A DNA stretch of 64,000 nucleotides from assembly GCA_030447385.1 (NCBI GenBank), contig JAUJOY010000002.1:578081-642080 (forward strand), in the 5' to 3' direction. A program made the position numbers and the translations under genes. Shown here piece after piece: positions 9,162 to 63,772 of the stretch; the stretch's first letter is position 1; each line of letters starts with the position of its first letter. The notes beneath the pieces are model-generated. The model saw only the letters and a list, made by a program, of their open reading frames with translations. It was not told the DNA's origin and ran no database searches. The DNA is from Mycobacteriales bacterium (GTDB lineage: Bacteria > Actinomycetota > Actinomycetes > Mycobacteriales > SCTD01).

Positions 9162-9164
9162 GCT

Positions 9165-42355: not shown

Positions 42356-43129
42356 ATGCGCATCGGACTGTCGGGCAAGGGTGGTGTGGGCAAGTCGACG
42401 ATCTCGGCTGTGCTGTCTCGGAGCCTGGGCCGCTCAGGCCACCAGGTGGTCGCGGTGGACTGCGACTCCGATCCCAACCTCGGGGTCAGCATCGGGCTCG
42501 GGGAGCAGGGCGCGGAGCGCATCCGCTCGATCCTGGACCAGTCCGGCGCGCAGCGGCACGTGCCGACCGACCTCTCGCCCAGCGAGCTCCTGGACCGCTA
42601 CGGCTACGCCGCGCCGGACAACGTGACGGTGATGCTGGCTGCCCGCTCGGAGAAGGCGGGCTCCGGTTGAACGGGCAGCGCCCACGTCACGGTCCGTGAC
42701 TTCATCGACAACGCGAACCGCACCCTGCCCGACGCCATGGTGGTCGCCGACATGGAAGCGGGCCTGGAGCACCTGTCCTGGGCCGGGGGGACCCTGCGCT
42801 ACGCCGACCTGCTGCTCGTGGTCCTCCAGCCGACGGGAAAGGTGATGCTGACGGCGGACCGCATGCATCGCCTTGCCGTCGACCTCGGGATCGCCGACAT
42901 CGCCTTCGTCGGCAACCGCGCGGGTGAGGCCGACCGCCAGCGGCTCGAGGACTTCGCGGCCGAGCGGGGTCGCGAGCTTCTCGCGATCATCCCCGAGGAC
43001 GAGGCGGTGCTGCACGCCGACCAGCAGGGCGTGTGCGTGCTGGACTACGCACCGCAGTCTCCGGCGGTGCGCGCCATCCAGGGGCTGGCCGAGAAGATCG
43101 ACGCCAAGGCCCGGCACGCCCGGTCCTAG
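42356..43129 (+). CDS. CooC/MinD-type P-loop ATPase interrupted by in-frame TGA (42668-42670)
   Basis: GKGGVGKST deviant Walker A in the upstream part and ADMEAGLEHL in the downstream part, both in the same frame. The second part has no independent N-terminus. Confidence 0.6.
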
Positions 43130-46357: not shown

Positions 46358-47734
46358 TCACGGTTGGAAACGTTCAGTGCAGCTCTGGGCGATCGGAGGC
46401 TTTCCGGGTGACGCCGCATCACCGGCGGCCACCAGGACGCTGCCATCCTTCAGCAGCACCGACGCCTGCTCGCTGCGAGGGCAGGCCATGTCGCCGGCCG
46501 GTAGCCACTCCCCGATGGCGCCGGCCTCGAAGTCGAAGATCTCGGCGCTGGTGAGGGAGCTGCGAGCACCGCGTTGCACGGACTCCCCTCCCACGACGAA
46601 CACCCGTCCGTCGTTCAGCCGCGTTGCCGTGTGCCCGGTACGCGTACTGCCCATCGGGCCGACCGTGCTCCAGGTGCCGGCCCTCGAGTCGAACAGCTCC
46701 GCCGTCGCGAGGGAGATGTCCCCGGCGTCGCCTCCGGACCCTCCGCTCAGGAGGACCGCGTTGTCGCCGAGCAAGACCGCCGCGTGGTTGGTCCGGGCCC
46801 CGTTGAGGTTGCTGGACCCGACGAAGGCCTTCGCCGCCGGGTCGTAGATCTCGGTCGAGGCGAGGGGCTTCTCACTTCCGCCGGCCGCTGCCGGGCCGAG
46901 CCCGCCGGCCACGACCACCCGTCCGTCCCGCAGTCGGGTGGCGGTGTGCTCGAAGCGTCCGGTTGCCATGGAACCGGTCGACGACCAGGTCCCGGTCTTG
47001 GGGTCGAAGAGCTCTGCGGTCGGGGCTGCGGGGATCGGCTGCCCGCCCGTGGCATCCAGCGTGCTGCCCCCGGCCACCAGCACCTGGCCGCTGTTGAGCA
47101 GCGTCAGGGAGTGGCCCAACCGGGCAGCGCCCATAGGCTGCACGGCAGACCACGTGCGGGTCGCTGGGTCGTACACCTCGGCAGATGCCAGCAGCACTCC
47201 GTTAGCCAGGCCCCCGGCCACGAGGACCCGACCGTCGTTGAGCAGGGCCGCCTGATGACCGCGCCGGGGTTGCGCCAGCGGGCCGACCTCCTGCCAGGCC
47301 TGCGCGCCAGGAGTCAGGACCTCGGTGGCCCCTATCGCCAAGGCACCGACACCGCCGCCGGCGACGACCACGCTGCCGTCGCCGAGTACGAGTGCCGTCG
47401 CCGTTCCGCGGATGGCCGAGAGATCGGGGGCGTCGGTCCACACGCCGACCGGCGCGGCCGCGACCTGATCGGCCGGGTCGCTCGACGACGGCCGAAGCGC
47501 CAGGATGGCCACGAGCAGGCCGATGGCCACCAGGGCCCCGCCGATCAGGAGCAGAGGCGTGCGCGACCTCTGGGCCGCGACGCTGGGGCCCGGGACGGGG
47601 GCTGCGCACGTCGCGCACTTCAGGCCTACCTCGGTGCGGTTCATGCACTTCGGGCACAGCGGCTGGCCGCAGTCGACGCAGGTGAGCCTGGTCGCCTCAC
47701 CGTGCGCCTCGCAGCTGCGTGTCTGTGTTGCCAT
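46358..47734 (-). CDS. Zinc-ribbon (B-box-like) - TM - Kelch-repeat beta-propeller protein
   Basis: CEAH-x7-CVDC-x4-CPKC-x8-KCATC, one TM helix, then six or so repeats of the type TW....M...R.GH....L.DGRV.V.GG. Confidence 0.7.
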   Translation of the reverse strand: MATQTRSCEAHGEATRLTCVDCGQPLCPKCMNRTEVGLKCATCAAPVPGPSVAAQRSRTPLLLIGGALVAIGLLVAILALRPSSSDPADQVAAAPVGVWTDAPDLSAIRGTATALVLGDGSVVVAGGGVGALAIGATEVLTPGAQAWQEVGPLAQPRRGHQAALLNDGRVLVAGGLANGVLLASAEVYDPATRTWSAVQPMGAARLGHSLTLLNSGQVLVAGGSTLDATGGQPIPAAPTAELFDPKTGTWSSTGSMATGRFEHTATRLRDGRVVVAGGLGPAAAGGSEKPLASTEIYDPAAKAFVGSSNLNGARTNHAAVLLGDNAVLLSGGSGGDAGDISLATAELFDSRAGTWSTVGPMGSTRTGHTATRLNDGRVFVVGGESVQRGARSSLTSAEIFDFEAGAIGEWLPAGDMACPRSEQASVLLKDGSVLVAAGDAASPGKPPIAQSCTERFQP

Positions 47735-49920: not shown

Positions 49921-51750
49921 CTAGACAGTGCGCACGCCCGCCGCGGTCTCGCGTCGACGCACGAGCAGGGCCAGCAGGACGAACAGCAAGCCGACCACCA
50001 GCAGACCGATGACTCCCGCGAGCACGTACTTCAAGGTGCTCGACGTACCGGACTCCAGCTCCTCGAACTGCACGGCCGACATGAAGATGTCCTGGCCCTG
50101 GGTCACGGAGTCGAACATCCGGGTGTCGTCCCAGGCAACGAGTGCGTAGGCCTCGGTCGAGGCGATCCCCGGTGGGCCGTTCAGGTCGAAGTTCTGGGCG
50201 AACACCCCGATGCGGCGGTCGATCGACCTGTCGCTGATCCGGACGTTCTTCGACCAGCTGGCGCCGTTGTCGGACGAGTGCGCGTAGTAGACGTCGTTGC
50301 TGGTGATGCCGGGATCAGCCCGGGTGTCGAACCAGGCCACGTCCAGGCGACCGTCCGGCGCGATGCTCAGGTTGGGAAGGCCGCTGAAGAAGAGTTGCTT
50401 CGGGTCGTCGTCGTTGACCACCATCGGCTCGCTCCAGGTCTGTCCCCGGTCCGTCGATCGACGGTAGAAGACGTCCGCCTCACTGGCGACCTCCGGCGTC
50501 CGGGAGCCCTCGTAGACGAGGTGCAGGGTGCCGTTCTCCCCGCCTTGCGGGCTCCAGACGAGGTCCAGGCCGCCGAAGTTGTTGACGTTGTCCTTGGCGA
50601 ACGGAGTGATCTGGAAGACCTCGGTGGTCTTGCCCTGGTCGGAGGTTCGGGTGATGAAGTGAGCGGGCCGGGTCGTCCCCTTGATGTTCTGGTAGCTCGT
50701 GACCCATGCGGCGTAGGCGGTTCCCTTGTCGTCCACGGCCAACGAGGGGTTGCTGCCTCCGAAGTTCACCTGCTGGTCAGGACTCGAGGCGGGAGAACCG
50801 GGCGGTGGTGGACCGGACGCGGAGGGAGAGGGCCGCGGTGATGGAGAGGGGGAGGCGAGAGGAGACGCCGGCGCCCCTTCGTTCGGCGCAACGGGCGACG
50901 CGCTTGCGGAGGCCGTCGGGGACGCGGCAGCCGAGGCGTTCGGGGACGCAGCAGGGGAGACCCCAGGGGAGGCCCCCGGGGATGCGGCGGCGGCAGGCGC
51001 CGCGGAAGGAGTGGGGGGTACCACGACCTTGAGGGCCTCGGCGCGCACCGCTGGGTCGGCGAACTTCTGGCCGACGAGGTTGATCGGCTCCGAGAAGGTG
51101 GCCCCGCCATCGGTGGACACCGACATGACCGGGATGTTGGGCTTCCGGTTCGGGTCGGTGAGCCGGTTCTGCTGCCGCCAGCTGACGTAGAGCACGTCCT
51201 GCTCACCGCTGGTGTCCACGACGAAACCGGAGATCGGGCGGTTCGGCTCCTGCTTCTCGCCGGTCAGGCCACGGGTGTCCCGGACGATGGTCGTCTGCCA
51301 CGTCTTGCCCATGTCCTCGGAGCGTCCGACCAGCACGCTGCGGTTGGCCGCATCCTGGGTGTCCCAGCCGGCGAGGGCGTAGTAGAGCCGCTTGTCGGAC
51401 CCGAAGGCGAGCTTGCCCTGGATGGTGTGGCTGTTCGTCATCAGGCACAGCGGGTAGTTGTCCGGCGAGGGGGACGACTCGAGCGGCTCCCAGGTCTGAC
51501 CCCCGTCGAAGGACTGCATCGTCCCGCAGACCTGGGTGCGCAGGTCGACAGCCGACGCGAGGATGTGCAGCGGGTCTTCCGGGTCGACGGCGAAGTCCGG
51601 CACGCCGTAGGTCCGTGCGGGGGAGAGGTTGAACTTGGTGGCCTGGACCGGTGCGGTCACCTGCACCCGTTCCTGCGCCAGCACCTGCGTCTGGACCGGG
51701 GCCAGCGTCGCCGCCAGCAGGACACATGCCGCCACAGTCCGCTTCTTCAT
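49921..51750 (-). CDS. BNR/Asp-box repeat beta-propeller protein with C-terminal TM anchor
   Basis: Signal peptide from MKKRTVAAC. Six S-x-D-x-G-x-T-W-type boxes (SFDGGQTW, SEDMGKTW, STDGGATF, TSDQGKTT, STDRGQTW, SSDNGASW). An internal Pro/Ala/Ser-rich insert of about 85 aa. TM plus RRRE tail. Confidence 0.75.
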   Translation of the reverse strand: MKKRTVAACVLLAATLAPVQTQVLAQERVQVTAPVQATKFNLSPARTYGVPDFAVDPEDPLHILASAVDLRTQVCGTMQSFDGGQTWEPLESSPSPDNYPLCLMTNSHTIQGKLAFGSDKRLYYALAGWDTQDAANRSVLVGRSEDMGKTWQTTIVRDTRGLTGEKQEPNRPISGFVVDTSGEQDVLYVSWRQQNRLTDPNRKPNIPVMSVSTDGGATFSEPINLVGQKFADPAVRAEALKVVVPPTPSAAPAAAASPGASPGVSPAASPNASAAASPTASASASPVAPNEGAPASPLASPSPSPRPSPSASGPPPPGSPASSPDQQVNFGGSNPSLAVDDKGTAYAAWVTSYQNIKGTTRPAHFITRTSDQGKTTEVFQITPFAKDNVNNFGGLDLVWSPQGGENGTLHLVYEGSRTPEVASEADVFYRRSTDRGQTWSEPMVVNDDDPKQLFFSGLPNLSIAPDGRLDVAWFDTRADPGITSNDVYYAHSSDNGASWSKNVRISDRSIDRRIGVFAQNFDLNGPPGIASTEAYALVAWDDTRMFDSVTQGQDIFMSAVQFEELESGTSSTLKYVLAGVIGLLVVGLLFVLLALLVRRRETAAGVRTV

Positions 51751-51938
51751 CGTGTAAGTCCCCAGAGGTAGGTCATCCTGGCCGTCCGGACGGACCACCA
51801 GGTAGGTCGGGCGAGGGCTAGCGCCGAGCGCCGCTCGGCTTTCGGGCATGCGGGCGACCAGCCCGTCCGGCGCCCGCTGTCCGGGCTCCTCGCGCGCCGG
51901 GCGGGCCGGGGCATGGTCGTGCGGGTGGCGCTGGTCGG

Positions 51939-53068: not shown

Positions 53069-53659
53069 ATGATCGGCAAGAGGTCCCTCTCGGTGGCGTT
53101 CAGCGCCGCTGTGGCAGGCATGGTTCTGTTCGCCGGCGTCGCCTACGCCTGCACCAACCTGGCGACGCTCAACCTGAGCACCGCGAGCGGCAGCGTCGGT
53201 GACACCGTCACCGTCACCGGCTCCTCGTTCCGCACCCCGGCCAAGGCCACCGATGCGGTGATGCCGGTGTCGCTGAGCTGGAACGGCGCCGACGGCCCGG
53301 TCCTGGCGCAGACCGTGCCGGACGCCGCGGGCAACATCTCCGCCACCTTCACCGTGCCCGAGGGTCAGGCCGGGTACTACGTGATCCTGGCCAAGCAGCT
53401 CGACGCCAAGGGTGTGGACGCCTACGGCACCCCGGCCCGCGCGGCGTTCCAGATCCTGGGCGCCAACGGTGAGTCCGTGGTGACCCCGCAGACCAGCCAG
53501 ACCCCCGCGGTCAGCGAGGGCAACGGCGCGGGCATCCTGGCCCTGACCGTCGGTCTGGGTGCGCTGGGCCTGAGCCTGTTCGCCGCGGGCTTCACCGCCT
53601 TCGCCCGCCAGGCCCGCCGCCAGGAGGTCCCGGCCACGGCCAAGGTGCGCAACAACTAG
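53069..53659 (+). CDS. Tail-anchored secreted Ig-like surface protein, copy B (identical protein to copy A)
   Basis: The 196-aa translation is identical to 48278-48868. Confidence 0.7.
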   Translation: MIGKRSLSVAFSAAVAGMVLFAGVAYACTNLATLNLSTASGSVGDTVTVTGSSFRTPAKATDAVMPVSLSWNGADGPVLAQTVPDAAGNISATFTVPEGQAGYYVILAKQLDAKGVDAYGTPARAAFQILGANGESVVTPQTSQTPAVSEGNGAGILALTVGLGALGLSLFAAGFTAFARQARRQEVPATAKVRNN

Positions 53660-55462: not shown

Positions 55463-55930
55463 CTAGGGCTGGGCCCCGACGCGGCTGGGCGCGGCGGTGC
55501 GAGCCCGGAAGAGCAGGCACCAGCCGACACCGAGCAGCAGCACTGCCAGCCCTGGCGTGCTGTGGTGCAGCGTCGCCCCCCAGGGCGCCTCGCCGCGGGT
55601 GGCCTGCAGGACCAGGGGAAGGTGCGTCGCGTCCATCCAGAGGCCCGCCACCAGGATGACCAGCCCTACACCGAACAGCGGTCCCATCGTGGTCGCGCGG
55701 CGCCCGATCAGCAGCGCGAGCAAGGAGACCACGATGACCAGCGTCCCAGGCACCACGTGGTCGACGAACTCCAGCTGGTCGCCGCGGGGGCCGAGCTCGA
55801 GACGAGGTCCGCCGTACCGGGGCAGCAGCGCCCACGTACCGACCAGGACTCCGAGACCCGCCAGCATCGGGACGGCGGCCAGGCGCCGCCGGGCCAGCGC
55901 CGCATCGGGTGCACTCGTGCTCTTGGTCAT
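55463..55930 (-). CDS. Small four-TM membrane protein
   Basis: Hydrophobic segments. ATGA overlap with the upstream BNR gene. Confidence 0.5.
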   Translation of the reverse strand: MTKSTSAPDAALARRRLAAVPMLAGLGVLVGTWALLPRYGGPRLELGPRGDQLEFVDHVVPGTLVIVVSLLALLIGRRATTMGPLFGVGLVILVAGLWMDATHLPLVLQATRGEAPWGATLHHSTPGLAVLLLGVGWCLLFRARTAAPSRVGAQP

Positions 55931-57459
55931 GCCTCGGCTCCTGTCGGCTGCGTGCGCGGTCGCGCCTGCTTGCGTATCAGCGTAAGGACGGCCACCACCG
56001 CAACCAGGCCGGACAGCAGGATCAGGACGGGGGCCGTACGGCTCAGCGGGCCTCCCGAGCCGAGCGTCACCGTCGCCGCGAAGACGTCCTGTCGGCCGGT
56101 GTTCACGTCGCCCAGCCGCGTGTCGGTCCAGCTGGCGAGTGCTTCCCTCTCGGTGCTCACCAGGCCGAGCCGGGTGCCGAAGTCGGTGCCGTACTCCGGC
56201 CCGAAGGTGGGACCGACGGCCGAGCTGAACGGCTGCGAGGACACCCGCACGTTGGTGAACGTGTCGCGGCCGTTGTCGGACGAGGCGAGGTAAACCTCCG
56301 TCTGCACATCGGCGGGATCGCCGCGGCGGTCGTAGAACAGCACATCCACCCGGCCGTCGGGCGCAACAGCGACGCGCGGGAGGTACTGGCTCGTGCCGTC
56401 TGCCATGGCGTTGTCGTTCACCCTCGTGGCATCGGACCAGGTGCCCCCGCCGTCCTCCGAGCGGCGCAGGAAGACGTCTTCGTTGCCGTTGCGGCCGTCG
56501 GCCCAGGCGACGGAGAGGGAACCGTCCGGGCCGGCCGCGAGCGAGGGGTAGTCCGGCAGGAAGACGAGGAAGCGGCGCGCGGGGACGAAGTTCGACTCGA
56601 TCTCCACGCCCTGGCCGAAGGTCCTGCCGCCGTCGGTGGACCGGGTGACCACCAGCGCGTACGGGTCCTCGGCTACCGGTCCCTGCAGCCCGCCGAAGTT
56701 GCGCCGGTCGTTCTTGAAGTCCTGGTAGAGGACGACGACGTCGCCACCGGAGTCGATGACCGGACTGGCCGCGCCGACCCGCTCGCGGGAGGCATCGCTG
56801 ACCGCCACCGGAGTGGAGAAGGTGCGTCCGCCGTCCCCCGACCGAGCGGTGACGACGCGGGCCGGGCCGACCAGCTGGTTGAGGCCCACAGCCTCGGCGT
56901 CCAGCCAGACGAGGTGGACGCTGCCAGCGTCGTCCACCACGACGCGCGGTTGGAAGGAGAGCTCACCGGCGACGCGGACAGGCTGCTCGAGGGTGCGACC
57001 ACCATCTGTGGAGCGAGCGAGCCAGAGGGCCGCCGGCGTGTTGCCGCGCCCCTGCAGAGAGAGGTAGACGACGTACAAGGTGCCGTCCGGCCCGAAGGCG
57101 ACGTCGGCCGCGAAGGGGCAGGGCTTCTGCTCGGGCGAGGCGGCACACGGCTCGGTGCCGGCGGGCAGGGGGAGCGAGGTCGGCTGCCAGGTGGCACCAC
57201 CGTCCGCGCTCCACTCGAGCAGCGCGGAAAAGCCCGGCCGGTCGATGCGGTGCGCGACGACGGCGCGACGGCGATCGTCCGGATCGGTCGCCACGGTCGG
57301 AGAGTTGTTCACCGAGATGACGCCCGGCGGGTTCACGAGGACGTTGGCGCCGACGGTGGTCTCGCCCCCGGTCCGGTAGAGCGTCGCCGCCGCCACGAGC
57401 GCGGCCACCAACCCGAGGCACATCGCCGCGAGACCCACCGCGGTCTTCCGGTCTGTCAT
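55927..57459 (-). CDS. BNR/Asp-box repeat beta-propeller protein with N- and C-terminal TM segments
   Basis: SADGGATW, STDGGRTL, SGDGGRTF, STDGGRTF, SEDGGGTW, SSDNGRDT. Start taken at MTDRKTAVG. Confidence 0.75.
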   Translation of the reverse strand: MTDRKTAVGLAAMCLGLVAALVAAATLYRTGGETTVGANVLVNPPGVISVNNSPTVATDPDDRRRAVVAHRIDRPGFSALLEWSADGGATWQPTSLPLPAGTEPCAASPEQKPCPFAADVAFGPDGTLYVVYLSLQGRGNTPAALWLARSTDGGRTLEQPVRVAGELSFQPRVVVDDAGSVHLVWLDAEAVGLNQLVGPARVVTARSGDGGRTFSTPVAVSDASRERVGAASPVIDSGGDVVVLYQDFKNDRRNFGGLQGPVAEDPYALVVTRSTDGGRTFGQGVEIESNFVPARRFLVFLPDYPSLAAGPDGSLSVAWADGRNGNEDVFLRRSEDGGGTWSDATRVNDNAMADGTSQYLPRVAVAPDGRVDVLFYDRRGDPADVQTEVYLASSDNGRDTFTNVRVSSQPFSSAVGPTFGPEYGTDFGTRLGLVSTEREALASWTDTRLGDVNTGRQDVFAATVTLGSGGPLSRTAPVLILLSGLVAVVAVLTLIRKQARPRTQPTGAEA

Positions 57460-57646
57460 CGGCGCAGATACTAGGTGCAGGGGTGCCGGCAGAGCGCTAG
57501 ATGCGCTGTGCACCTAGTGATCTCGTGCTCCTGGCTTCGATATGCTCCGTGACCAGCGAGAACCGGAAGCGAGGAGCCACAGGGTGATGTCGACCCGGCG
57601 TGACGGGCGAACCGCGGGCCGACCGGATGCCTCGGGCGGCGGGGTG

Positions 57647-58453
57647 ATGCAGATGCGGCGGACCAACGGCGGTGCCCTGCGGGTGGGTGTCGTCGGCAGC
57701 GGCGGAGTCGGCAAGTCGATGATCTCGGCGAGCCTGGCGCGCATCCTCGCGCGGCGCGGACGTTCCGTGCTCGCTGTGGATCTCGACCCCAATCCCGGGC
57801 TGGCGTACAGCCTCGGCCTGGCTCCCAACGACGACGGGCTGCCGGCGGAGAGCACGGTGCGCGTGGAGAAGGGCGGCCTGTACGGCTGGGCCCCGGCGCC
57901 GGAGGTGGACCTCACGACAGCGGCCCTGACGCTGAGCCGGGTGGCGCCCGATGGTGTGCGCTACCTGAGCCCCGGGAAGATCGATGCCTCCGGGGACGCC
58001 AAGGGCGAGGTCAAGAGGTGCCTGGGCACGGTCCGCCAGATGGTGGACCTCCTAGAGGCCCCCTGGGACGTCGTGGCGGACCTCGAGGCGGGGACCACGA
58101 CGCCCTACGAGGGCTACGCGCGGTTCGCCGACACGATGGTCGTCGTGGCCAGTGGTGCCTGGCGATCGTGCGTGGCCGCGCGTCGGCTGCTGGCGCTGTT
58201 CCCCGACATGCCCGCGGTGGTGGTGGCCACCAAGTCGACACCCGGAGCAAGCGACGCGTCCCGCTGGGGACTGCCCGTACGACACACCATCCCGTTCGAC
58301 CCCGACGTCCTCGAGGCCGAGCGCCACGGTCGTGCTCCGATCGACGTCTGCCCTGATGGTCCCGCTCTGTCGGCAGTGGCAGCACTGGCCGACCTGCTCC
58401 TGGAGACCCGCCCCATGACAGTGTCCGCTCCCCGCGCCGCGGCCCACCGATGA
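57647..58453 (+). CDS. CooC/MinD-type ATPase homologue with degenerate Walker A (signature Lys replaced)
   Basis: VVGSGGVGKS instead of xKGGxGK[ST]; VADLEAG switch region. Start approximate. Confidence 0.6.
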   Translation: MQMRRTNGGALRVGVVGSGGVGKSMISASLARILARRGRSVLAVDLDPNPGLAYSLGLAPNDDGLPAESTVRVEKGGLYGWAPAPEVDLTTAALTLSRVAPDGVRYLSPGKIDASGDAKGEVKRCLGTVRQMVDLLEAPWDVVADLEAGTTTPYEGYARFADTMVVVASGAWRSCVAARRLLALFPDMPAVVVATKSTPGASDASRWGLPVRHTIPFDPDVLEAERHGRAPIDVCPDGPALSAVAALADLLLETRPMTVSAPRAAAHR

Positions 58454-59226
58454 AGATCGTCGTCACCGGGAAGGGAGGCGCCGGCAAGACCACGATCTCC
58501 GGCGCGCTCGCCCGGCTGCTCGCTCGCGGTGGCCATCGCGTCGTCGCGCTCGACTGCGACCCGAGCCCGGGGCTCGGCATTTCCCTGGGGCTCGGTCCGG
58601 AGGCGACCGAGGCCGCGCCTGCCGTCCTGAACAGCCTCGTCGCCCTGGGGCACACCCACAACGACCCGGACCCGGACCCGGAGGACCTGCTCACCCGGTT
58701 CGGGGTCGACGGCCCGGACGGGGTGCGCCTGCTCGTGGGTGGCAAGGTGGAGCAGCTCGCAGGGGCGTGCGTCTGCTGTGGCTCGCACAGCACGACCCGC
58801 AAGCTGTTCAGCAACCTGCCGCATGAAGGCCGGGTGGTGCTGGCCGACCTGGAGGCCGGGCTGAACGACCTGATCTGGGCCTCACCGAAGGCCGACGACA
58901 TCGTGATCGCCCTGGCCGAGCCGAGCGCCAAGGGCTTCGAGATCGCTCGCCGCGCCTGCGAGCTGGCGGAGACGATGGGGGTCGGTCAGCGCATCGTCGT
59001 GGCCAACCGGGCCAACGGGGCTGACGTGGAGACGCTGTCCGAGCTCACCGGGCTGGCCGCCGTGGCCGTCCCGGACGATCCCGCCGTCGCGCAGGCCGAC
59101 CGCGAGGGGCTGGCCCCGATCGACGTCGACCCGCAGTCGCCGGCGCTGCTCGCCATCGCCTCCCTGGCTGAGCAGCTGGGGCTCGTGCCGGCGCTGGCGG
59201 CAGCGCAGCCCGAACGACGAGGGTGA
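58450..59226 (+). CDS. CooC/MinD-type P-loop ATPase with C-x-C-C motif
   Basis: ATGA overlap; VTGKGGAGKTT, GACVCCGSHS, LADLEAGLNDL. Confidence 0.7.
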   Translation: MKIVVTGKGGAGKTTISGALARLLARGGHRVVALDCDPSPGLGISLGLGPEATEAAPAVLNSLVALGHTHNDPDPDPEDLLTRFGVDGPDGVRLLVGGKVEQLAGACVCCGSHSTTRKLFSNLPHEGRVVLADLEAGLNDLIWASPKADDIVIALAEPSAKGFEIARRACELAETMGVGQRIVVANRANGADVETLSELTGLAAVAVPDDPAVAQADREGLAPIDVDPQSPALLAIASLAEQLGLVPALAAAQPERRG

Positions 59227-60920
59227 CCCTCACCGGTCCGGCGAGCGGCCGGCTCCCTGCCAGGACCGGCAGCATCACGTTCCCCCACGCGGCGGCCTTC
59301 TGGCTCGGGACCGCCGCGGTAACGGTGGGCGTGCTGCTGCATCTGCCCATGTACCTCAGCGGCAGCGACATGGGCTACCTGCTCGTGGGGATGCCGATCG
59401 ACCGGCCGATGATGGCGGGGATGGCGCTGATCGTCGCGGGGCTGGCCGCCACCGCGTACGGCCTGCTGCCGCCGTTGTCACGCCAGCGACCCGAGGCGGC
59501 GTTCCTGCGGGTGAAGACCCTCGACGACGCCGCGCTCTCCCGGGCCCACCTCGGCCTGCTGCTGGTGCTCGCGGCCGCGGTCACCATCGATGTCATGAAG
59601 CCGGTGACGCTCGGCTTCGTGGTCCCGGGCATGGGCAAGGAGTACGGCCTGCAGTCGGCGCTGAACCCGACGGGAGGTCTCCCGGTAGCGCTCCTGCCCC
59701 TGGCCGGGATCACGGGCACGGTGCTGGGCTCCCTGGTGTGGGGCTGGCTCGGCGACCGGATCGGCCGTCGACCCGCCATCCTGCTGGCCGGGATCATCTT
59801 CATCGCGACGTCCATCTGCGGGTCGATGCCGAGCTTCAGCCTGAACCTGCTCATGTGCTTCATCATGGGGCTCGGCGCCGGCGGCATGCTGCCGATCACC
59901 TTCGCGCTGATGGCAGAGGCTGTCCCCGCGCGACATCGCGGCTGGCTGATGGTGCTCATCGGCGGGGATGTCGCGGGTGCCTACATCCTCGTGAGCTGGC
60001 TGGCGGCCGAGCTCACCCCGACCTACTCGTGGCGGATCCTGTGGCTCCTCGGGCTTCCCACGGGCGTGCTGCTGCTCCTGCTCAACCGGTGGATCCCGGA
60101 GTCTCCCCGCTACCTCATCCAGAACGGACGTGACGCCGAGGCGCGCGCCGTGCTGTCCCGCTACGGCGCCACCGTGGTGGTGGAGCAGCACCACGAGCTC
60201 ACGGTCGAGGAAGGCGTGCGCAGCGGCTGGGGGCAGCTCTTCGCAAAGCCCTTCGGGGGACTGGCCCTCGTCGTCGGCCTCTTCGGTCTGGGCGTCGGGT
60301 TGGTCACCTTCGGCTTTCAGCTGTGGATCCCGTCCAACCTGCAGAAGCTGGGTTTCTCAGAGGTCACCTCGGCCACCATCCTTCGTGACTCGGCCCTGCT
60401 CGGACTGCCCGCCACCTTCGTCATCGCCTGGCTCTACGGGTTCTGGAGCAGCCGGAAGACGATGATCCTGCTTGCCCTCGTCACAGCAGGTTCCCTGCTC
60501 TGCTTCGTCGTCCTCGGCGACGCCGTGGTGGAGAACCGGACACGGCTCTACCTGCTGCTGATCCTGCCGATCACCGGGATCAGCTCCATCCTCGCGGTGC
60601 TCCTGGCGTACGCCTCGGAGAGCTTTCCGACCCGGGTGCGCTCGCGCGGCGCGGGCCTCGCGGCAGGGGCCAGCAAGCTGGGCGGCGTGGGTGTCATCGC
60701 CCTGGTGGTGGCGGGCACAGCGCCTCCCTCGATCGCCAGCACGGCTCTGCTGGGGGCGGTCCCGCTGCTGCTCGCTGCACTGGCCATGGCGGTGTACGGC
60801 GTGGAGACGCACCGGCGCCGGCTCGAGGACATCACCGCCGAGGAGCTGCGCCTTCACCGTGCGCCGGAAGGAAGATGGGTCGCCGCAGCGAGCCAGGGCG
60901 ACAGTGCCGAAAGCCCGTGA
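59223..60920 (+). CDS. MFS transporter with N-terminal extension
   Basis: GTGA overlap; GWLGDRIGRRPAIL (motif A). About 14 helices. Confidence 0.75.
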   Translation: MTLTGPASGRLPARTGSITFPHAAAFWLGTAAVTVGVLLHLPMYLSGSDMGYLLVGMPIDRPMMAGMALIVAGLAATAYGLLPPLSRQRPEAAFLRVKTLDDAALSRAHLGLLLVLAAAVTIDVMKPVTLGFVVPGMGKEYGLQSALNPTGGLPVALLPLAGITGTVLGSLVWGWLGDRIGRRPAILLAGIIFIATSICGSMPSFSLNLLMCFIMGLGAGGMLPITFALMAEAVPARHRGWLMVLIGGDVAGAYILVSWLAAELTPTYSWRILWLLGLPTGVLLLLLNRWIPESPRYLIQNGRDAEARAVLSRYGATVVVEQHHELTVEEGVRSGWGQLFAKPFGGLALVVGLFGLGVGLVTFGFQLWIPSNLQKLGFSEVTSATILRDSALLGLPATFVIAWLYGFWSSRKTMILLALVTAGSLLCFVVLGDAVVENRTRLYLLLILPITGISSILAVLLAYASESFPTRVRSRGAGLAAGASKLGGVGVIALVVAGTAPPSIASTALLGAVPLLLAALAMAVYGVETHRRRLEDITAEELRLHRAPEGRWVAAASQGDSAESP

Positions 60921-60932
60921 AATCATGCCGCT

Positions 60933-61898
60933 ATGTCCTCCCCGAACCGGATCGGCGGGACCGTGGACTCTGACCGGATGAGCGCCCCCGAGCTGGCGAA
61001 GGTGGCGCCGGCACCGGCCGCGCCGCCGTCGTCGCTGCGCCGCAACGTGCCGGCGGCCCTCGGCCTGCTCGGGCTGCTCGCGAGCGCCCTGATCGGCGGG
61101 AACGTCCTCGGGCTGCGTGAGCGCCTCCTGGGGTCGGAGACACCGGTTGAACGCCCCGCCGCGGTCAGTCGCGCCAGTGAAGCAGCGGGTGCCGTGCCCG
61201 CGGCCAGCGCACCGCCCACGCAGACCGTCCTGCGCTCCCAGCCCTGGTGGCAGCGCGTGACCACGCTGGAGGGCACCGGGTCGCAGCCCGCCGCCCCCTT
61301 CGCCGTCGGGTCCGATGCCATCCAGTGGCGGGTCGAATCGACGTGCCAGACCGGGCGCCTGCTCGCCCGTCTGCCCGGTGCTTCGCGTCCGGTGCTGGAC
61401 ACCGCCTGCCCGGCGACGCCGACCGGCTACGGCACCCGCAAGGGCAGCGTGATGCTCGACGTCACCGCGGACGGCCCGTGGCAGATGCGCGTGGACCAGC
61501 AGGTCGACGTCCCCCTGGTCGAGCCGCCGCTGCCGGCGATGACCGCGCCTGGCGCGGTGAAGGTGGCCACCGGGTCCGTCTACCGCGTGGACCAGGTGGG
61601 GATGGGGACGGCGACGGTCTACCGCCTGCCTGACGGCAGCCACGCCCTGCGGCTCGACGACTTCTTCGTCACGCCCAACACCGACCTGGAGCTCCAGCTG
61701 AGCCCCCTCGAGGCCCCGCGGACGACCGAGGAGGTGACCAACGCCCGGTCGGGCACCATCGCGGCGCTCGACGTGACGGCCGGCGCCATGAACTTTCCGG
61801 TGCCGCCGGAGATCGACCCCGCGAAGTTTCGCTCCCTGGTCATCTGGTGCGAGCTCACCCGCAACGCCTACGCCGCGGTGAGCCTGAAGCCGGTATGA
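60933..61898 (+). CDS. Membrane-anchored DM13 domain protein
   Basis: N-terminal TM helix. The C-terminal ...HALRLDDFFVTPNTDLELQL...FRSLVIWCELTRNAYAAVSL fits the DM13 pattern. Confidence 0.6.
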   Translation: MSSPNRIGGTVDSDRMSAPELAKVAPAPAAPPSSLRRNVPAALGLLGLLASALIGGNVLGLRERLLGSETPVERPAAVSRASEAAGAVPAASAPPTQTVLRSQPWWQRVTTLEGTGSQPAAPFAVGSDAIQWRVESTCQTGRLLARLPGASRPVLDTACPATPTGYGTRKGSVMLDVTADGPWQMRVDQQVDVPLVEPPLPAMTAPGAVKVATGSVYRVDQVGMGTATVYRLPDGSHALRLDDFFVTPNTDLELQLSPLEAPRTTEEVTNARSGTIAALDVTAGAMNFPVPPEIDPAKFRSLVIWCELTRNAYAAVSLKPV

Positions 61899-63043
61899 CC
61901 ACGACAGCGAGCATCACGTCCTCACCCCCCACTGGCCCCACCCTCACGTGGCGGGGCGAGGTCATCCCGGTCGTGCTGCCCTCGCCCCGCGATCCGCGGC
62001 TGAAGCTGTCCGCGGTCATCATGACGCTGCACGTGCTCGGTCAGACCCTGCTCGACTTCAAGGTCTCGATCGCCCAGATCGTGGTCACCATCGCCTTCTG
62101 CGCGCTCATCGAGGCAGCAGTCACGTTCCGCAACGCGCGCAGGCTCGTGTGGCCGGCGAGCGGAATCCTGACCGGCAGCAGCGTGGTCTTCATCCTTCGG
62201 GCCTCGGGCACCCAGCACGGCGACTGGTGGAGCCTGAACGGCATCGAGTTCTTCCTGCTGGCCGGGCTCATCGCACTGCTGTCCAAGCACCTCATCCGTC
62301 CGCAGGGCCGCCACCTGTTCAACCCGTCCAACGTCGGGATCGTGTGGTGCCTGCTCGTGATCGGCCCCAACCACGTCTTCGCGCAGTACCTGTGGTGGGG
62401 GCCGAACACGCTCGGCGTCGTCTTGGCGTACGCCGTCATCATCGCCGGGGCACTGTGGATCCTCAGGGCCGTGCGGATGATCCCGATGGCGGTCTCGTTC
62501 CTCGTCACGTTCGCCGTGCTGATCGGGATCCTCGCGGCGATGGGCAACAGCTTCATCGCCATCTGGCACGTCGGCCCGATCAGCGGGTTGTCCTACTGGG
62601 CCACCATCGCCCTCTCGCCCGAGACACTCGTCTTCGTCTTCTTCATGATGTCCGACCCGCAGACAGCGCCCAAGGCAGCCCGCGGACGGATCATCTACGG
62701 TGCCGCGACGGCCATGGTCGCTGCCGCGCTGATCTCCGTGCAGCCGGCTGAGTTCGGCATCAAGGTGGCTATTCTCAGCAGCCTGACCGTGGTGTGCGCG
62801 CTGGTCCCGCTGATCGAGGCAGCCGCGCGCCGCATGCAGGTGCCCGTGGTTGCGGGCGGAGCGGAGCGGCGTGCCGACGCGGTTCCGCTGGCCACCCGCT
62901 GGGCAGCGGCCGTCCGCCGCCCGGCCGTGCTGGCTGCGCTCATCATCGCCGTGGCTGCCCCGGTCGACACGGCCGTGCTGGCCGGCAACGAGCAGGTGAT
63001 CCTCATCGAGCGGGGGCAGGCCGGCCCGCTCAATGCGCAGTGA
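61895..63043 (+). CDS. RnfD/NqrB-superfamily-like polytopic membrane protein
   Basis: ATGA overlap; HLFNPSN and FFMMSDPQT strings resemble RnfD/NqrB conserved segments. Confidence 0.5.
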   Translation: MTTTASITSSPPTGPTLTWRGEVIPVVLPSPRDPRLKLSAVIMTLHVLGQTLLDFKVSIAQIVVTIAFCALIEAAVTFRNARRLVWPASGILTGSSVVFILRASGTQHGDWWSLNGIEFFLLAGLIALLSKHLIRPQGRHLFNPSNVGIVWCLLVIGPNHVFAQYLWWGPNTLGVVLAYAVIIAGALWILRAVRMIPMAVSFLVTFAVLIGILAAMGNSFIAIWHVGPISGLSYWATIALSPETLVFVFFMMSDPQTAPKAARGRIIYGAATAMVAAALISVQPAEFGIKVAILSSLTVVCALVPLIEAAARRMQVPVVAGGAERRADAVPLATRWAAAVRRPAVLAALIIAVAAPVDTAVLAGNEQVILIERGQAGPLNAQ

Positions 63044-63163: not shown

Positions 63164-63772
63164 ATGCGCCCCTCCCTGAACCGGGTCCGGACCTCCCGCA
63201 GCGCCGTGCTGGCCGCGGCTGCCCTCCTCGCGCTGACGCTGTCCGCCTGCGGAGGAGACGAGGGCAGCGGCGCGACCAGTGGTTCCAACAGCAGGAGCAC
63301 AGCGGTAGGAGCGGTCGACAAGCAGCACAACGACGCCGACATCGCCTTCGTGAAGGAGATGACGCCGCACCACGAGAGCGCGGTGGCGATGTCCGAGCTG
63401 GCGCGGGACCGGTCGGACAACCCGGCAGTCACGGCGCTCGCCACCCGGATCGCCGGTGCCCAGGAGCCGGAGATCGCGCAGATGCGGAAGATGGCCAAGG
63501 CATGGGGTGTGGATCTGGGAGCCGGCCACTCCAGCGGCTCGCACACGGGCATGGACATGACCGGCGCCACGACGCTGGAACCCCTGAAGGGGCCGGCCTT
63601 CGACCGCGCCTTCCTCACCGAGATGATCGCCCACCACGAGTCGGCGCTGCCGATGTCGAAGGCAGTGCTCGATCAGGGCGCCAACCCGCAGGCCAAGGTC
63701 CTGGCGCAGCAGATCGTCGCGACGCAGACCGCCGAGATCGCCGAGATGAAGCAGCTGCTCACGACGGTCTGA
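63164..63772 (+). CDS. DUF305 family lipoprotein (duplicated HH-motif four-helix unit)
   Basis: LSAC lipobox. D-x-x-F-x-x-M-x-x-HH-x-x-A occurs twice. Confidence 0.75.
   Translation: MRPSLNRVRTSRSAVLAAAALLALTLSACGGDEGSGATSGSNSRSTAVGAVDKQHNDADIAFVKEMTPHHESAVAMSELARDRSDNPAVTALATRIAGAQEPEIAQMRKMAKAWGVDLGAGHSSGSHTGMDMTGATTLEPLKGPAFDRAFLTEMIAHHESALPMSKAVLDQGANPQAKVLAQQIVATQTAEIAEMKQLLTTV

What the first reader, a model, noticed from the sequence alone, without database searches (positions are those of the whole stretch)
57647..63043. Tightly coupled five-gene operon: CooC/MinD-type ATPase pair + MFS transporter + DM13 protein + RnfD/NqrB-like membrane protein
The start/stop junctions are ATGA (58450), GTGA (59223), a 12-nt gap (60921-60932) and ATGA (61895), so the five genes look co-translated. 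The set combines a nucleotide-dependent metallochaperone-type dimer, a transporter, a secreted or anchored DM13 module (a domain proposed to act in electron transfer) and a membrane protein with RnfD/NqrB-like segments. A DUF305 metal-binding-type lipoprotein follows. No client metalloenzyme (CODH, hydrogenase, urease, nitrile hydratase) is present in the window. I cannot assign this gene set to a known pathway. A membrane redox or metal-cofactor delivery module is my inference.
Basis: partly seen in the sequence, partly recalled or inferred. Interest (0 to 1): 0.7.

Follow-up and report, generated by a model that had tools for sequence, protein, structure and literature searches.

The report
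Flavin-less RnfD-like membrane module
The five genes are real and tightly packed, but the conserved unit is an uncharacterised membrane machine (DM13 protein, a flavin-less RnfD-fold protein, an MFS transporter and a BNR propeller) found only in uncultured soil bacteria, and the CooC-type ATPase pair is an occasional add-on.

Summary
All five ORFs, the ATGA/GTGA/12-nt/ATGA junctions and every domain call were confirmed. Across 73 related loci, all from MAGs of Actinomycetota, Dormibacterota and Chloroflexota, the collinear five-gene layout occurs only on this genome's own contig, and DUF305 never recurs. The conserved core is DM13 followed by the RnfD-like gene: directly adjacent in 53 of 62 loci, spacing ≤20 nt in 60 of 63. 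The MFS (28 loci) and the upstream BNR propeller (21 loci) belong to the same machine, because elsewhere they are fused to the RnfD-like module in single polypeptides (P0328, P0248). The RnfD-like protein has the RnfD/NqrB fold, but the loop carrying the FMN-threonine is deleted. No Rnf/Nqr partner, ApbE, FMN_bind or NAD-binding domain is present, so a redox role is unsupported. The ATPases are true CooC relatives; ATPase2 keeps the CxC site and ATPase1 is degenerate. They are enriched near the module (14 of 73 loci) but also occur in unrelated contexts. A third CooC-like gene in the window (42356-43129) carries a conserved in-frame TGA at the CxC cysteine plus a covarying hairpin, making it a likely selenoprotein. 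My best guess, at modest confidence, is a binding-domain-dependent secondary transport complex.

The parts
61895..63043 (+). Core gene 1: RnfD/NqrB-fold polytopic membrane protein (382 aa, about 11 TM) lacking the FMN-threonine loop. It has an invariant extracytoplasmic C-terminal tail, LIERGxxGxxNAQ.
   Evidence: Pfam PF03116 29.6 bits. AF2 pLDDT 85. Foldseek to RnfD/NqrB chains. FMN loop absent by hhalign against E. coli RsxD. 55-89% identity across three phyla.
60933..61898 (+). Core gene 2: membrane-anchored ectoprotein with a TM helix at about residues 39-55, a disordered linker, a novel beta-sandwich (105-191, invariant C138/C159) and a DM13 beta-sandwich (209-317, invariant C306). Its stop overlaps the RnfD-like start (ATGA).
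   Evidence: Pfam DM13 33.9 bits. AF2 model. Alignment A3. Directly upstream of the RnfD-like gene in 53 of 62 loci. Spacing ≤20 nt in 60 of 63 loci.
59223..60920 (+). 14-TM MFS transporter of the SV2/sugar-porter/AAHS type, with a conserved extra N-terminal two-helix extension (HLPMY, MxxDxxMxxxM).
   Evidence: Pfam and NCBIfam. Best PDB hits are SV2A, GlcP and OCTN2. Present in 28 of 73 loci at 65-81% identity. Fused to the RnfD-like module in P0328, 46% identity over 520 aa.
55927..57513 (-). BNR/Asp-box beta-propeller ectoprotein anchored by N- and C-terminal TM helices, transcribed divergently from the ATPase genes.
   Evidence: Pfam BNR_2. Homologues in 21 of 73 loci. 47% identical (E 1e-112) to the BNR half of the BNR-RnfD-like fusion P0248.
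55463..55930 (-). Small (155 aa) multi-TM protein with invariant E-x-V-D-H, T-H and H residues, overlapping the BNR gene stop. It has no Pfam family.
   Evidence: no family. Alignment of 10 homologues. Found in 14 of 73 loci, next to the BNR or ATPase genes.
58450..59226 (+). ATPase2: CooC-family P-loop ATPase with intact deviant Walker A (GKGGAGKT) and a C-V-C-C motif aligned to the CooC1 Ni-binding C112-x-C114.
   Evidence: Best PDB hit CooC1 3kje, E 4.7e-14, with the alignment shown. Motif survey. IMG names the orthologues 'CO dehydrogenase maturation factor'.
57647..58453 (+). ATPase1: degenerate partner ATPase. The Walker A is GSGGVGKS (signature Lys lost) and there is no CxC motif.
   Evidence: The same degenerate-plus-CxC pairing is seen in L009 and L022, and an ATPase pair with a 4-nt overlap is seen in L082/L083.
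42356..43129 (+). Third CooC-like ATPase of the island, with an in-frame TGA (42668-42670) at the CxC position and a conserved hairpin at 42686-42700. It is a candidate selenoprotein.
   Evidence: See Noticed in passing.
44420..46339 (-). FtsH paralogue. FtsH homologues recur near the core in 7 other loci.
   Evidence: Pfam. Recurrence.
46358..47734 (-). B-box zinc finger plus Kelch beta-propeller protein, recurring in 6 loci.
49921..51849 (-). Second, more divergent BNR propeller protein (642 aa).
53069..53659 (+). Secreted Ig-like protein with a C-terminal TM anchor, recurring in 8 loci. Further copies lie at about 48278-48868 (+) and 51990-52574 (-).
63164..63772 (+). DUF305/CopM-type lipoprotein. 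This is a neighbour, NOT part of the conserved unit.
   Evidence: Present next to the core only in this genome (1 of 73). Separated by a 120-nt gap with its own ribosome-binding site.

Best explanation
The locus encodes an uncharacterised cytoplasmic-membrane complex. Its obligatory pair is a membrane-anchored DM13 double-beta-sandwich ectoprotein and an RnfD/NqrB-fold polytopic protein that has lost the covalent-flavin loop. This pair works with a dedicated 14-TM SV2/sugar-porter-type MFS and a doubly anchored BNR beta-propeller. I propose, by inference, that it acts as a binding-domain-dependent secondary transporter or uptake-and-processing complex. In this model the Trp-rich ectodomains (DM13, BNR; in other lineages fused FG-GAP/ASPIC propellers, a NosD-type beta-helix or an alpha/beta domain) capture or process an extracytoplasmic ligand. 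The RnfD-fold subunit serves as the membrane docking platform and possibly an ion path; it keeps the superfamily's FNP(S/A) and (S/T)DPxT motifs but not the redox loop. The MFS moves the cargo across the membrane. The two CooC-family ATPases would form an asymmetric cytoplasmic heterodimer: ATPase2 with an intact Walker A and CxC thiolate site, ATPase1 with the signature lysine lost. They are a lineage-variable accessory, acting as an assembly, loading or regulatory factor. In this genome they have become translationally coupled to the MFS. What is shown: gene structure, folds, loss of the flavin site, synteny, the fusions and the CooC motif. What is inferred: complex formation, direction of transport, cargo and ATPase role.
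For: Core pair: DM13 lies directly upstream of the RnfD-like gene in 53 of 62 loci with enough flank, with 5 more in a shuffled order. Spacing is ≤20 nt in 60 of 63 loci, with a 4-nt overlap in 38. One machine: P0328 is MFS + RnfD-like + FG-GAP/ASPIC propeller in one polypeptide, and its MFS is 46% identical over 520 aa to the window's MFS, including the N-terminal extension. P0248 is BNR + RnfD-like, with its BNR half 47% identical (E 1e-112) to the window's BNR; its contig again reads DM13 -> fusion -> MFS. At least ten other RnfD-like proteins are fused to FG-GAP/ASPIC propellers or a beta-helix, and none of about 20 inspected carries a redox domain. Fold: RnfD/NqrB, with AmtB channels as the next-best tier. 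The flavin loop is deleted. The topology is consistent with ectodomains outside and the fusion linkers inside. Trp is enriched among conserved positions in the RnfD-like (p=0.03), DM13 (p=0.003) and BNR (p=0.004) families, as expected for ligand or interface surfaces. ATPases: CooC1 is the best solved relative and the CxC motif aligns. They are near the core in 14 of 73 loci, which I estimate is far above chance for a family with a few copies per genome (the chance estimate is my own, not computed).
Against: No substrate clue was found: no riboswitch, no catabolic or regulatory genes consistently linked, and no catalytic motif identified in the BNR or DM13 domains. The only known function of the RnfD/NqrB fold is in redox-driven ion pumps, so a non-redox role is an extrapolation. 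About half of the loci lack a nearby MFS. Complex formation was not modelled (no multimer prediction was available). The ATPase role is unexplained, and the presence of Cys/Sec sites hints at metal or redox chemistry that this model does not require. All carriers are uncultured, so there is no experimental anchor.
Confidence: 0.35

Rival explanations
1. Metal or metal-cofactor trafficking module. The MFS/RnfD-like complex moves a thiophilic metal or metal chelate. The CooC-type Cys/Sec ATPases hand it over in the cytoplasm, and the small His-bearing membrane protein and the ectodomains are donors or acceptors.
For: ATPase2 and the Sec-containing paralogue keep the CooC Ni-site position, and the ATPases are translationally coupled to the MFS here. 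The small membrane protein has invariant E/D/His residues. The MFS extension has invariant MxxDxxMxxxM and a ≥90% conserved HLPM. This window has a CopM/DUF305 gene downstream and an orphan NikA/CntA-like binding protein upstream, the latter also seen in L058. One ATPase/BNR cluster lies beside HycI and NifU maturation genes.
Against: Conserved Met/Cys/His are not enriched in the MFS (p=0.19), the RnfD-like protein or the BNR protein, and DM13 has only three invariant Cys and no His. ATPases are absent from most loci (59 of 73) and also occur in unrelated contexts. DUF305 is not conserved. No client metalloenzyme is linked.
Confidence: 0.2
2. Transmembrane electron-transfer module. The RnfD-like protein conducts electrons to the DM13 ectodomain, as in the two-subunit Nqr/Rnf-like complexes.
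For: The RnfD/NqrB fold is confirmed. The architecture, a TM subunit plus an anchored ectosubunit, parallels the published Nqr/Rnf-like complex, which also lacks the Thr (PMC11334425). DM13 has been proposed on contextual grounds to act in electron transfer (Pfam name). Redox-type selenoproteins (an AhpD-like CxxU protein and the CooC-like UxC protein) are in the wider neighbourhood.
Against: The FMN-Thr loop is deleted. There is no NAD-binding domain, FMN_bind partner, ApbE, Fe-S, cytochrome or cupredoxin in the window, in 73 loci or in about 20 fusion architectures. The only nearby Rieske protein does not recur. DM13 has no conserved metal or haem ligands.
Confidence: 0.15
3. Cell-envelope assembly or quality-control machine rather than a transporter. 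The propellers, DM13, Ig-like anchored proteins, Kelch proteins and a dedicated FtsH would build, remodel or survey a surface glycan or protein layer, with the ATPases acting as MinD/BcsQ-like positioning factors.
For: FtsH (7 loci), B-box-Kelch (6) and anchored Ig-like proteins (8) recur near the core. The ectodomain types (BNR, FG-GAP, CASH/NosD beta-helix, and DM13 as in insect Knickkopf, PMC4140639) are typical of glycan-interacting proteins. For ATPase2, the best NCBIfam alignment over its full length is to BcsQ.
Against: These extra genes are each present in ≤11% of loci. No glycosyltransferase or polymerase is linked to the core. The BcsQ score is far below cut-off (56 against 158 bits). 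The CxC/Sec site is not a feature of positioning ATPases.
Confidence: 0.15
4. The five-gene 'operon' is a recent, genome-specific juxtaposition. The ATPase pair belongs functionally with the divergent BNR/small-membrane-protein genes or acts elsewhere, and is only physically, not functionally, coupled to MFS-DM13-RnfD-like.
For: The collinear arrangement is unique to this genome. In L009 the same ATPase pair is on the opposite strand, next to BNR and the small membrane protein. In other loci the ATPases cluster with BNR, the small membrane protein, PadR and the AhpD-like gene rather than with DM13/RnfD-like. Orthologous pairs occur with no membrane module at all.
Against: The GTGA overlap between ATPase2 and the MFS implies co-transcription and probable co-translation here. 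BNR is itself fused to the RnfD-like module elsewhere, so the two sub-modules are linked anyway.
Confidence: 0.15

Closest known systems
RnfD / NqrB subunits of the Rnf and Na+-NQR redox-driven ion pumps (e.g. PDB 9eri_D, 7zc6_D, 8ahx_D, 7xk3_B; E. coli RsxD)
   Same: Same membrane fold (Foldseek probability 1.0, TM 0.52-0.64). Shares the FNP(S/A) and (S/T)DPxT motifs and the C-terminal helices. Reaches the Pfam PF03116 gathering score.
   Different: Only 15-19% identity. The roughly 60-residue extracytoplasmic loop with the FMN-threonine (RsxD T187) is deleted and replaced by an invariant VF(A/P)QYLWWGP loop. It has an extra C-terminal TM helix and a conserved tail. No RnfA/B/C/E/G or NqrA/C/D/E/F genes are present. 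Its partners are DM13, an MFS and beta-propellers. NCBIfam rnfD scores 15.6 against a cut-off of 207.
Two-subunit 'Nqr/Rnf-like' complexes (Huang et al., mSystems 2024, PMC11334425)
   Same: An NqrB/RnfD-like membrane subunit that lacks the flavinylated Thr, paired with a single membrane-anchored extracytosolic subunit.
   Different: In the published system the membrane subunit carries a cytosolic NAD-binding domain (PF00175) and its partner is a flavinylated NqrC/RnfG-like FMN_bind protein. Here there is no NAD-binding domain and the partner is DM13 with no flavinylation motif.
CooC (Ni-insertion ATPase for CODH; C. hydrogenoformans CooC1, PDB 3kje)
   Same: Best solved-structure match for ATPase2 (E 4.7e-14) and for the Sec-containing paralogue (E 7e-19). 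Same deviant Walker A. The CxC (or UxC/UxG) motif is aligned to C112-x-C114.
   Different: No CODH/ACS in the window or in related loci. ATPase1 lacks both the signature Lys and the CxC motif. The family is expanded (up to 7 or more copies per locus) and linked to BNR, PadR and small membrane proteins. No NCBIfam equivalog is reached.
Binding-protein-dependent secondary transporters (TRAP DctPQM, TTT TctABC). This is a functional analogy only, from my own knowledge of these systems.
   Same: The same concept: an extracytoplasmic receptor plus an accessory membrane subunit plus a secondary carrier.
   Different: No sequence or fold relationship. The receptor here is DM13 or a beta-propeller, the carrier is an MFS and the accessory subunit has the RnfD fold.
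SV2 / sugar-porter / AAHS-type MFS carriers (SV2A 9okf, GlcP 4lds, PcaK)
   Same: Closest relatives of the MFS gene by sequence. The PESPR and GRR motifs are present.
   Different: All NCBIfam scores are far below family cut-offs. It has an extra conserved N-terminal two-helix extension. It is fused or linked to an RnfD-fold module.

Membership tests
RnfD/NqrB subunit of an Rnf or Na+-NQR complex | RnfD/NqrB transmembrane fold | tested here: met
   AF2 model pLDDT 85 and pTM 0.84. Foldseek probability 1.0 to RnfD and NqrB chains.
RnfD/NqrB subunit of an Rnf or Na+-NQR complex | Covalent FMN attached to a conserved Thr in the S(G/Q)AT loop | tested here: not met
   In hhalign of the family profile against E. 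coli RsxD, residues around T187 (GISQATPLD) align to a gap. No [ST]GA[TS] motif is present in the protein (sequence).
RnfD/NqrB subunit of an Rnf or Na+-NQR complex | Co-encoded partner subunits (RnfA/B/C/E/G or NqrA/C/D/E/F) and ApbE | tested here: not met
   None in the 64-kb window or among the recurrent neighbours in 73 loci. ApbE elsewhere in the genome could not be tested.
RnfD/NqrB subunit of an Rnf or Na+-NQR complex | Curated family model reached | tested here: inconclusive
   Pfam PF03116 scores 29.6 against GA 27.7 (met, borderline). NCBIfam TIGR01946 rnfD scores 15.6 against 207 (not met).
Two-subunit Nqr/Rnf-like complex (PMC11334425) | RnfD-like membrane domain lacking the flavinylated Thr | tested here: met
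Two-subunit Nqr/Rnf-like complex (PMC11334425) | C-terminal cytosolic NAD-binding domain (PF00175) on the membrane subunit | tested here: not met
   Only PF03116 is found in the window protein and in about 20 relatives.
Two-subunit Nqr/Rnf-like complex (PMC11334425) | Flavinylated NqrC/RnfG-like (FMN_bind) extracytosolic partner | tested here: not met
   The partner is a DM13 protein, and no FMN_bind hit is found.
CooC metallochaperone ATPase | Deviant Walker A GKGGxGK[ST] with signature Lys | tested here: met
   Met for ATPase2 (VTGKGGAGKTT). NOT met for ATPase1 (VVGSGGVGKSM).
CooC metallochaperone ATPase | C-x-C metal-binding motif at the dimer interface | tested here: met
   Met for ATPase2: GACVCCG aligns to CooC1 C112-x-C114. 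Absent in ATPase1. U-x-G/C at this position in the third paralogue.
CooC metallochaperone ATPase | Genomic association with Ni-CODH/ACS (the client) | tested here: not met
   No CODH/ACS in the window or in 80 related loci.
CooC metallochaperone ATPase | Ni binding and ATP-dependent Ni insertion | not testable with these tools
   Requires biochemistry.
DM13 domain family (PF10517) | Profile match above gathering score | tested here: met
   33.9 against 25 bits, residues 224-318. The family's function is not experimentally defined in bacteria.
Bacterial selenoprotein (for the third CooC-like gene, 42356-43129) | Conserved in-frame TGA with conserved coding sequence on both sides | tested here: met
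   Seen in the window and six loci from different lineages.
Bacterial selenoprotein (for the third CooC-like gene, 42356-43129) | Cys-containing homologues with Cys at the TGA position | tested here: met
   ATPase2, the L009, L054 and L058 paralogues, and CooC1 C112.
Bacterial selenoprotein (for the third CooC-like gene, 42356-43129) | SECIS-type hairpin shortly downstream of UGA | tested here: met
   A 6-bp hairpin lies at +18 to +33. Three pairs show compensatory double changes, and only the loop-closing pair is unpaired in 2 of 7 sequences. The loop contains G-U. The single-sequence energy is not exceptional (z -0.06).
Bacterial selenoprotein (for the third CooC-like gene, 42356-43129) | selA/selB/selC/selD present in the genome | not testable with these tools
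   No tRNA in the window. The rest of the genome is not available.

The most novel reading that the evidence does not exclude
This is a previously unrecognised class of composite membrane transporter. A flavin-less RnfD/NqrB-fold subunit, an evolutionary offshoot of the redox-driven ion pumps, has been repurposed to couple an SV2-type MFS carrier to extracytoplasmic DM13 or beta-propeller receptors. The complex is serviced by a CooC-derived family of Cys/selenocysteine P-loop ATPases. It is widespread in the uncultured Actinomycetota, Dormibacterota and Chloroflexota found in soils, many of them arid or polar.
Probability: 0.25. Interest if true: 0.8.

Novelty: new variant of a known kind. Interest (0 to 1): 0.62.

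Why it matters
RnfD and NqrB are known only as flavinylated subunits of respiratory ion pumps. This work defines a large branch of that superfamily: 289 representative clusters at E ≤ 1e-30 and 914 at E ≤ 1e-10. The branch has lost the flavin site and is repeatedly fused or linked to an MFS carrier and to beta-propeller or DM13 ectodomains. That means the fold has a second, undescribed job. Every carrier found is an uncultured soil lineage (Acidimicrobiales, Mycobacteriales, Solirubrobacterales, Dormibacterota, Chloroflexota), many from desert or Antarctic soils, whose physiology is inferred almost entirely from genomes. Current annotation as 'RnfABCDGE subunit D' would wrongly credit these organisms with an Rnf complex in metabolic reconstructions. 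The associated CooC-family ATPases with selenocysteine at the metal-binding cysteine would, if confirmed, be a new selenoprotein family and a natural probe of how the CooC site works.

Tried and rejected
1. Flavinylation motif: absent, because the loop is deleted.
2. Identity with the published Nqr/Rnf-like two-subunit complex: rejected, as there is no NAD-binding domain and no FMN_bind partner.
3. DUF305/CopM as part of the unit: rejected, 1 of 73 loci.
4. The upstream Rieske-DUF2231 protein as an electron donor: does not recur, 1 of 73 loci at 37% identity.
5. Soft-metal pathway inferred from Met/Cys/His motifs: enrichment is not significant.
6. Riboswitch or known RNA leader: none in 40-64 kb at E ≤ 0.1, nor in 7 related loci.
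7. Sigma-70 promoter and intrinsic terminator scans: nothing, which is uninformative in 71% GC DNA.
8. Fold search of the DM13 protein against the PDB: only generic beta-sandwich and cupin hits with low TM.
9. Sequence and profile search of the paralogues' C-terminal ectodomain against the PDB: no hit.
11. Literature searches for bacterial DM13, RnfD-like combined with FG-GAP/BNR/DM13, and selenoprotein CooC: nothing relevant beyond PMC11334425.
12. BNR protein as a sialidase: only Asp-box-level similarity, E > 0.01.
13. No NCBIfam model reaches its cut-off for any component.

Full report
**1. Observation**

The five + strand ORFs exist exactly as described. The junctions were read from the sequence:
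- ATGA at 58450.
- GTGA at 59223.
- MFS stop at 60918-60920, followed by a 12-nt spacer and ATG at 60933.
- ATGA at 61895.

Pfam confirms CbiA-type P-loop ATPases twice, MFS_1/Sugar_tr, DM13 (33.9 bits against GA 25) and NQR2_RnfD_RnfE (29.6 against 27.7). The next gene is DUF305 and also matches the CopM metallochaperone model. The window is a near-copy of contig JAUJMM010000002.1 of MAG GCA_030446855.1, where independent gene calls give the same five genes. I annotated the rest of the window:
- 1-24 kb holds a surface-polysaccharide cluster.
- 24-38 kb holds housekeeping genes plus mpa, dop, prcB and prcA.
- 39-64 kb is the island described here, which ends just before pafA.

The window contains no CODH, hydrogenase, urease, nitrile hydratase, ApbE, FMN_bind or further Rnf/Nqr subunit.

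**2. What is conserved**

The RnfD-like protein has hundreds of close homologues at 64-89% identity. A scan of species-representative genomes returned 74 loci. All are from MAGs of Acidimicrobiales, Mycobacteriales, Propionibacteriales, Solirubrobacterales/Thermoleophilia, Nitriliruptorales, Dormibacterota and Chloroflexota, many from desert or Antarctic soils. I analysed these with tblastn using the window's proteins and with an unbiased clustering of all neighbourhood ORFs. Across 73 non-redundant loci:
- DM13 lies directly upstream on the same strand in 53 of the 62 loci with enough flank. Five more have it in a shuffled order.
- The DM13 stop and the RnfD-like start are ≤20 nt apart in 60 of 63 loci, with a 4-nt overlap in 38. 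This measure favours short spacings, but the independent gene calls in L002, L003 and L079 agree.
- The MFS is present in 28 loci at 65-81% identity, in three different positions.
- A homologue of the upstream, divergently transcribed BNR protein (55927-57513, minus strand) is present in 21 loci.
- CooC-like ATPases are present in 14 loci, in one to five copies and either orientation.
- A small membrane protein (55463-55930, minus strand) is present in 14 loci.
- DUF305 is present only in this genome.
- The collinear ATPase-ATPase-MFS-DM13-RnfD-like order occurs only on this genome's own contig.

The 'five-gene operon' is therefore a lineage-specific packaging of a two-gene core plus variable accessories.

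**3. Fusion proteins tie the parts together**

An exhaustive profile search found 1959 representative proteins at E ≤ 1e-3 and 289 at E ≤ 1e-30. Many are 500-1550 aa long. Their architectures are as follows:
- RnfD-like + FG-GAP/UnbV_ASPIC beta-propeller, in many proteins.
- RnfD-like + NosD-type beta-helix (P0324).
- BNR + RnfD-like (P0248).
- MFS + RnfD-like + FG-GAP/ASPIC (P0328).

The BNR half of P0248 is 47% identical to the window's BNR protein (E 1e-112). Its contig again reads DM13 -> fusion -> MFS, flanked by two more BNR genes and FtsH. The MFS part of P0328 is 46% identical over 520 residues to the window's MFS, including its unusual N-terminal two-helix extension. The common ~530-aa forms add one TM helix and a ~180-aa extracytoplasmic domain with no Pfam or PDB match. 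None of the roughly 20 architectures inspected contains a redox domain. MFS, RnfD-like protein and an extracytoplasmic beta-rich domain are thus parts of one machine. In the window that machine is split into separate genes: MFS, DM13, RnfD-like and BNR.

**4. The RnfD-like protein**

A confident AF2 model (pLDDT 85, pTM 0.84) matches RnfD chains at Foldseek probability 1.0, TM 0.52-0.64 and 15-19% identity. NqrB chains come next, and AmtB channels follow distantly. At sequence level only the C-terminal helices resemble RnfD. A profile alignment with E. coli RsxD shows that the ~60-residue loop carrying FMN-Thr187 (GISQATPLD) falls in a gap. In its place the family has the invariant loop VF(A/P)QYLWWGP.

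The published two-subunit 'Nqr/Rnf-like' complexes also lack the Thr. However, they have a cytosolic NAD-binding domain and a flavinylated NqrC/RnfG-like partner (PMC11334425), and neither is present here. Current database names such as 'RnfABCDGE subunit D' are therefore misleading for this family.

**5. DM13, BNR and MFS**

- **DM13 protein:** It has an N-terminal TM anchor, a disordered linker and two confident beta-sandwiches. The second is the DM13 domain. The PDB offers no informative match. Its invariant residues are three Cys (two probably forming a disulfide, which is my inference), Trp and polar residues, with no His.
- **BNR protein:** It is anchored at both ends and resembles sialidases only through its Asp-boxes.
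- **MFS:** It is nearest to SV2A, GlcP and OCTN2 and reaches no NCBIfam cut-off.

I tested the idea that conserved Met/Cys/His residues mark a soft-metal path. The enrichment is not significant in the MFS (p=0.19) and is absent in the RnfD-like and BNR proteins. Trp, by contrast, is enriched among conserved positions in the RnfD-like, DM13 and BNR families.

**6. The ATPases**

ATPase2 is a CooC relative. Its best PDB hit is CooC1 (3kje, E 4.7e-14), it has an intact GKGGAGKT Walker A, and its C-V-C-C motif aligns to the CooC1 C112-x-C114 nickel site. ATPase1 has GSGGVGKS, so the signature Lys is lost, and it has no CxC motif. The same degenerate-plus-CxC pairing is seen in L009 and L022.

I estimate the ATPases are enriched near the core well above chance (14 of 73 loci); this is an informal estimate, not a computed one. 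Where they occur, they sit next to BNR and the small membrane protein more often than next to DM13/RnfD-like. Contexts anchored on ATPase2 orthologues are heterogeneous:
- One locus (L081) has at least seven CooC-like genes, together with BNR, PadR and an M10 peptidase, beside HycI and NifU.
- Two loci (L082, L083) have only an ATPase pair next to a ferredoxin and a sigma factor.

The pair is thus a mobile accessory unit and not a defining part of the membrane module.

**7. A likely selenoprotein in the same island**

The window's third CooC-like gene (42356-43129) has an in-frame TGA at 42668, at exactly the first Cys position of the CxC motif. Six related loci have the same feature, in the conserved context G-x-G-U-x-[C/G]-x-x-H-A-x-V-R. 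With U written as C, the protein's best PDB match is again CooC1 (E 7e-19), and U aligns to C112.

A 6-bp hairpin lies 18-33 nt after the UGA in all seven genes. Three of its pairs show compensatory double changes that also alter the encoded amino acids, and only the loop-closing pair is unpaired in two of the seven sequences. Next to these ATPases in four loci there is also an AhpD-like gene with a conserved in-frame TGA (NRCHY-U-LSSHVWFLQLQG). That gene is not present in the window. I found no report of a Sec-containing CooC-type ATPase in the paper library.

**8. Mechanism**

The evidence best fits a cytoplasmic-membrane complex in which anchored, Trp-rich ectodomains (DM13, BNR) work with an RnfD-fold membrane subunit and an MFS carrier. 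In functional terms this is a binding-domain-dependent secondary transporter or uptake-and-processing complex. The CooC-type heterodimer would be an optional cytoplasmic assembly, loading or regulatory factor.

The steps that are shown are gene structure, folds, loss of the flavin site, synteny, the fusions and the ATPase motifs. The steps that are inferred are physical assembly, cargo, direction of transport and ATPase role. I put this explanation at 0.35. The rivals are:
- Metal trafficking (0.2). It is supported mainly by the ATPases, the invariant His/Asp/Glu residues of the small membrane protein and a local MxxxM motif in the MFS.
- Transmembrane electron transfer (0.15). It has the right fold but no cofactor site or partner.
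- An envelope assembly or quality-control machine (0.15). It is supported by the recurrence of FtsH, Kelch and Ig-like neighbours.
- A merely physical juxtaposition of the ATPase pair with the membrane genes (0.15).

**9. Novelty and verdict**

No curated family, solved structure or paper found here covers the DM13/RnfD-like/MFS/BNR module. It is a new, sizeable and misannotated branch of the RnfD/NqrB superfamily in a new architectural context, so I rate it a new variant of a known kind. Its function is unknown and all carriers are uncultured. That limits immediate testability. Even so, the fusion evidence, the cross-phylum conservation (55-89% identity) and the associated Sec/Cys CooC family make it worth follow-up. 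Interest: 0.62.

Noticed in passing
window 42356-43129 (+); TGA at 42668-42670; hairpin 42686-42700: A third CooC-like ATPase gene has an in-frame TGA exactly at the first Cys of the CooC CxC metal site. The same TGA is found in six related loci (L033, L037, L043, L052, L054, L063). Cys-containing paralogues exist, and a covarying 6-bp hairpin lies downstream. This is a candidate new selenoprotein family; gene callers split it into two ORFs.
   Followed up: yes
L041 11145-11771 (+), L054 5050-5652 (+), L052 2932-3516 (+), L043 11095-11700 (-): An AhpD/CMD-like gene has a conserved in-frame TGA giving a C-H-Y-U (CxxU) motif, with a conserved palindrome (CCTGCAGTTGCAGG) about 27 nt downstream. 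It is adjacent to the CooC-like ATPase clusters. It is not present in the window.
   Followed up: partly
window 55463-55930 (-): A 155-aa multi-TM protein with no Pfam family has invariant E-x-V-D-H-x-x-P, T-H and H residues across 10 homologues. It always lies beside BNR or CooC-like genes. This may be an intramembrane metal or cofactor site.
   Followed up: partly
window 48274-48573 and 53065-53364: A 300-nt direct repeat at 100% identity covers the 5' part of two copies of the anchored Ig-like protein gene. This is either a recent duplication or a MAG scaffolding artefact. The window also differs from sister contig L001 upstream of about 55.4 kb (the SBP gene is only 96% identical and the upstream gene content differs).
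   Followed up: partly
window 17035-18426 and 19598-20272: Two NosD/beta-helix ORFs start with an identical N-terminal sequence of at least 50 residues (MERTFVQPSFAGESATCGSGG...). The second appears truncated, and unannotated gaps surround both. This may be a duplication or an assembly problem within the polysaccharide cluster.
   Followed up: no
window 31139-37639 and beyond 64000 (L001 12080-20135): The 39-64 kb island sits inside the conserved actinobacterial Pup-proteasome region. The genes mpa, dop, prcB and prcA lie upstream, and pafA, pafBC-like WYL genes, tatA, tatC and helY lie downstream on the sister contig.
   Followed up: partly
window 53683-55437 (+); also L058 14436-16133: An orphan NikA/CntA-like family-5 solute-binding protein, with no ABC permease or ATPase genes, lies next to the module in this genome and in a Dormibacteria MAG.
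   Followed up: no
window 43176-44420 (-) and 46358-47734 (-): Two proteins begin with a B-box-type zinc finger. One is followed by an alpha/beta-hydrolase domain and the other by a Kelch propeller. They flank an FtsH paralogue (44420-46339). The arrangement is reminiscent of anti-sigma or regulated-proteolysis systems. The Kelch form recurs in 6 loci and FtsH in 7.
   Followed up: partly
L081 (GCA_046590575.1, JBKJUS010000107.1) 2780-18744: A cluster of at least seven CooC-like ATPase genes, two of them split like the Sec type, lies with two PadR regulators, an M10 peptidase and two BNR proteins. It is adjacent to a HycI hydrogenase-maturation protease and a NifU-like gene, which may hint at the ATPases' client.
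   Followed up: no
window 41360-42277 (-): A membrane protein combining DUF2231 with a Rieske [2Fe-2S] domain lies next to the Sec-CooC gene. It does not recur near the core in other genomes (1 of 73).
   Followed up: yes
L079 7503-9091: Five consecutive small ORFs (93-129 aa, no Pfam) and a GAF-histidine kinase/LuxR response-regulator pair lie immediately upstream of DM13 in the contig carrying the BNR-RnfD-like fusion.
   Followed up: no
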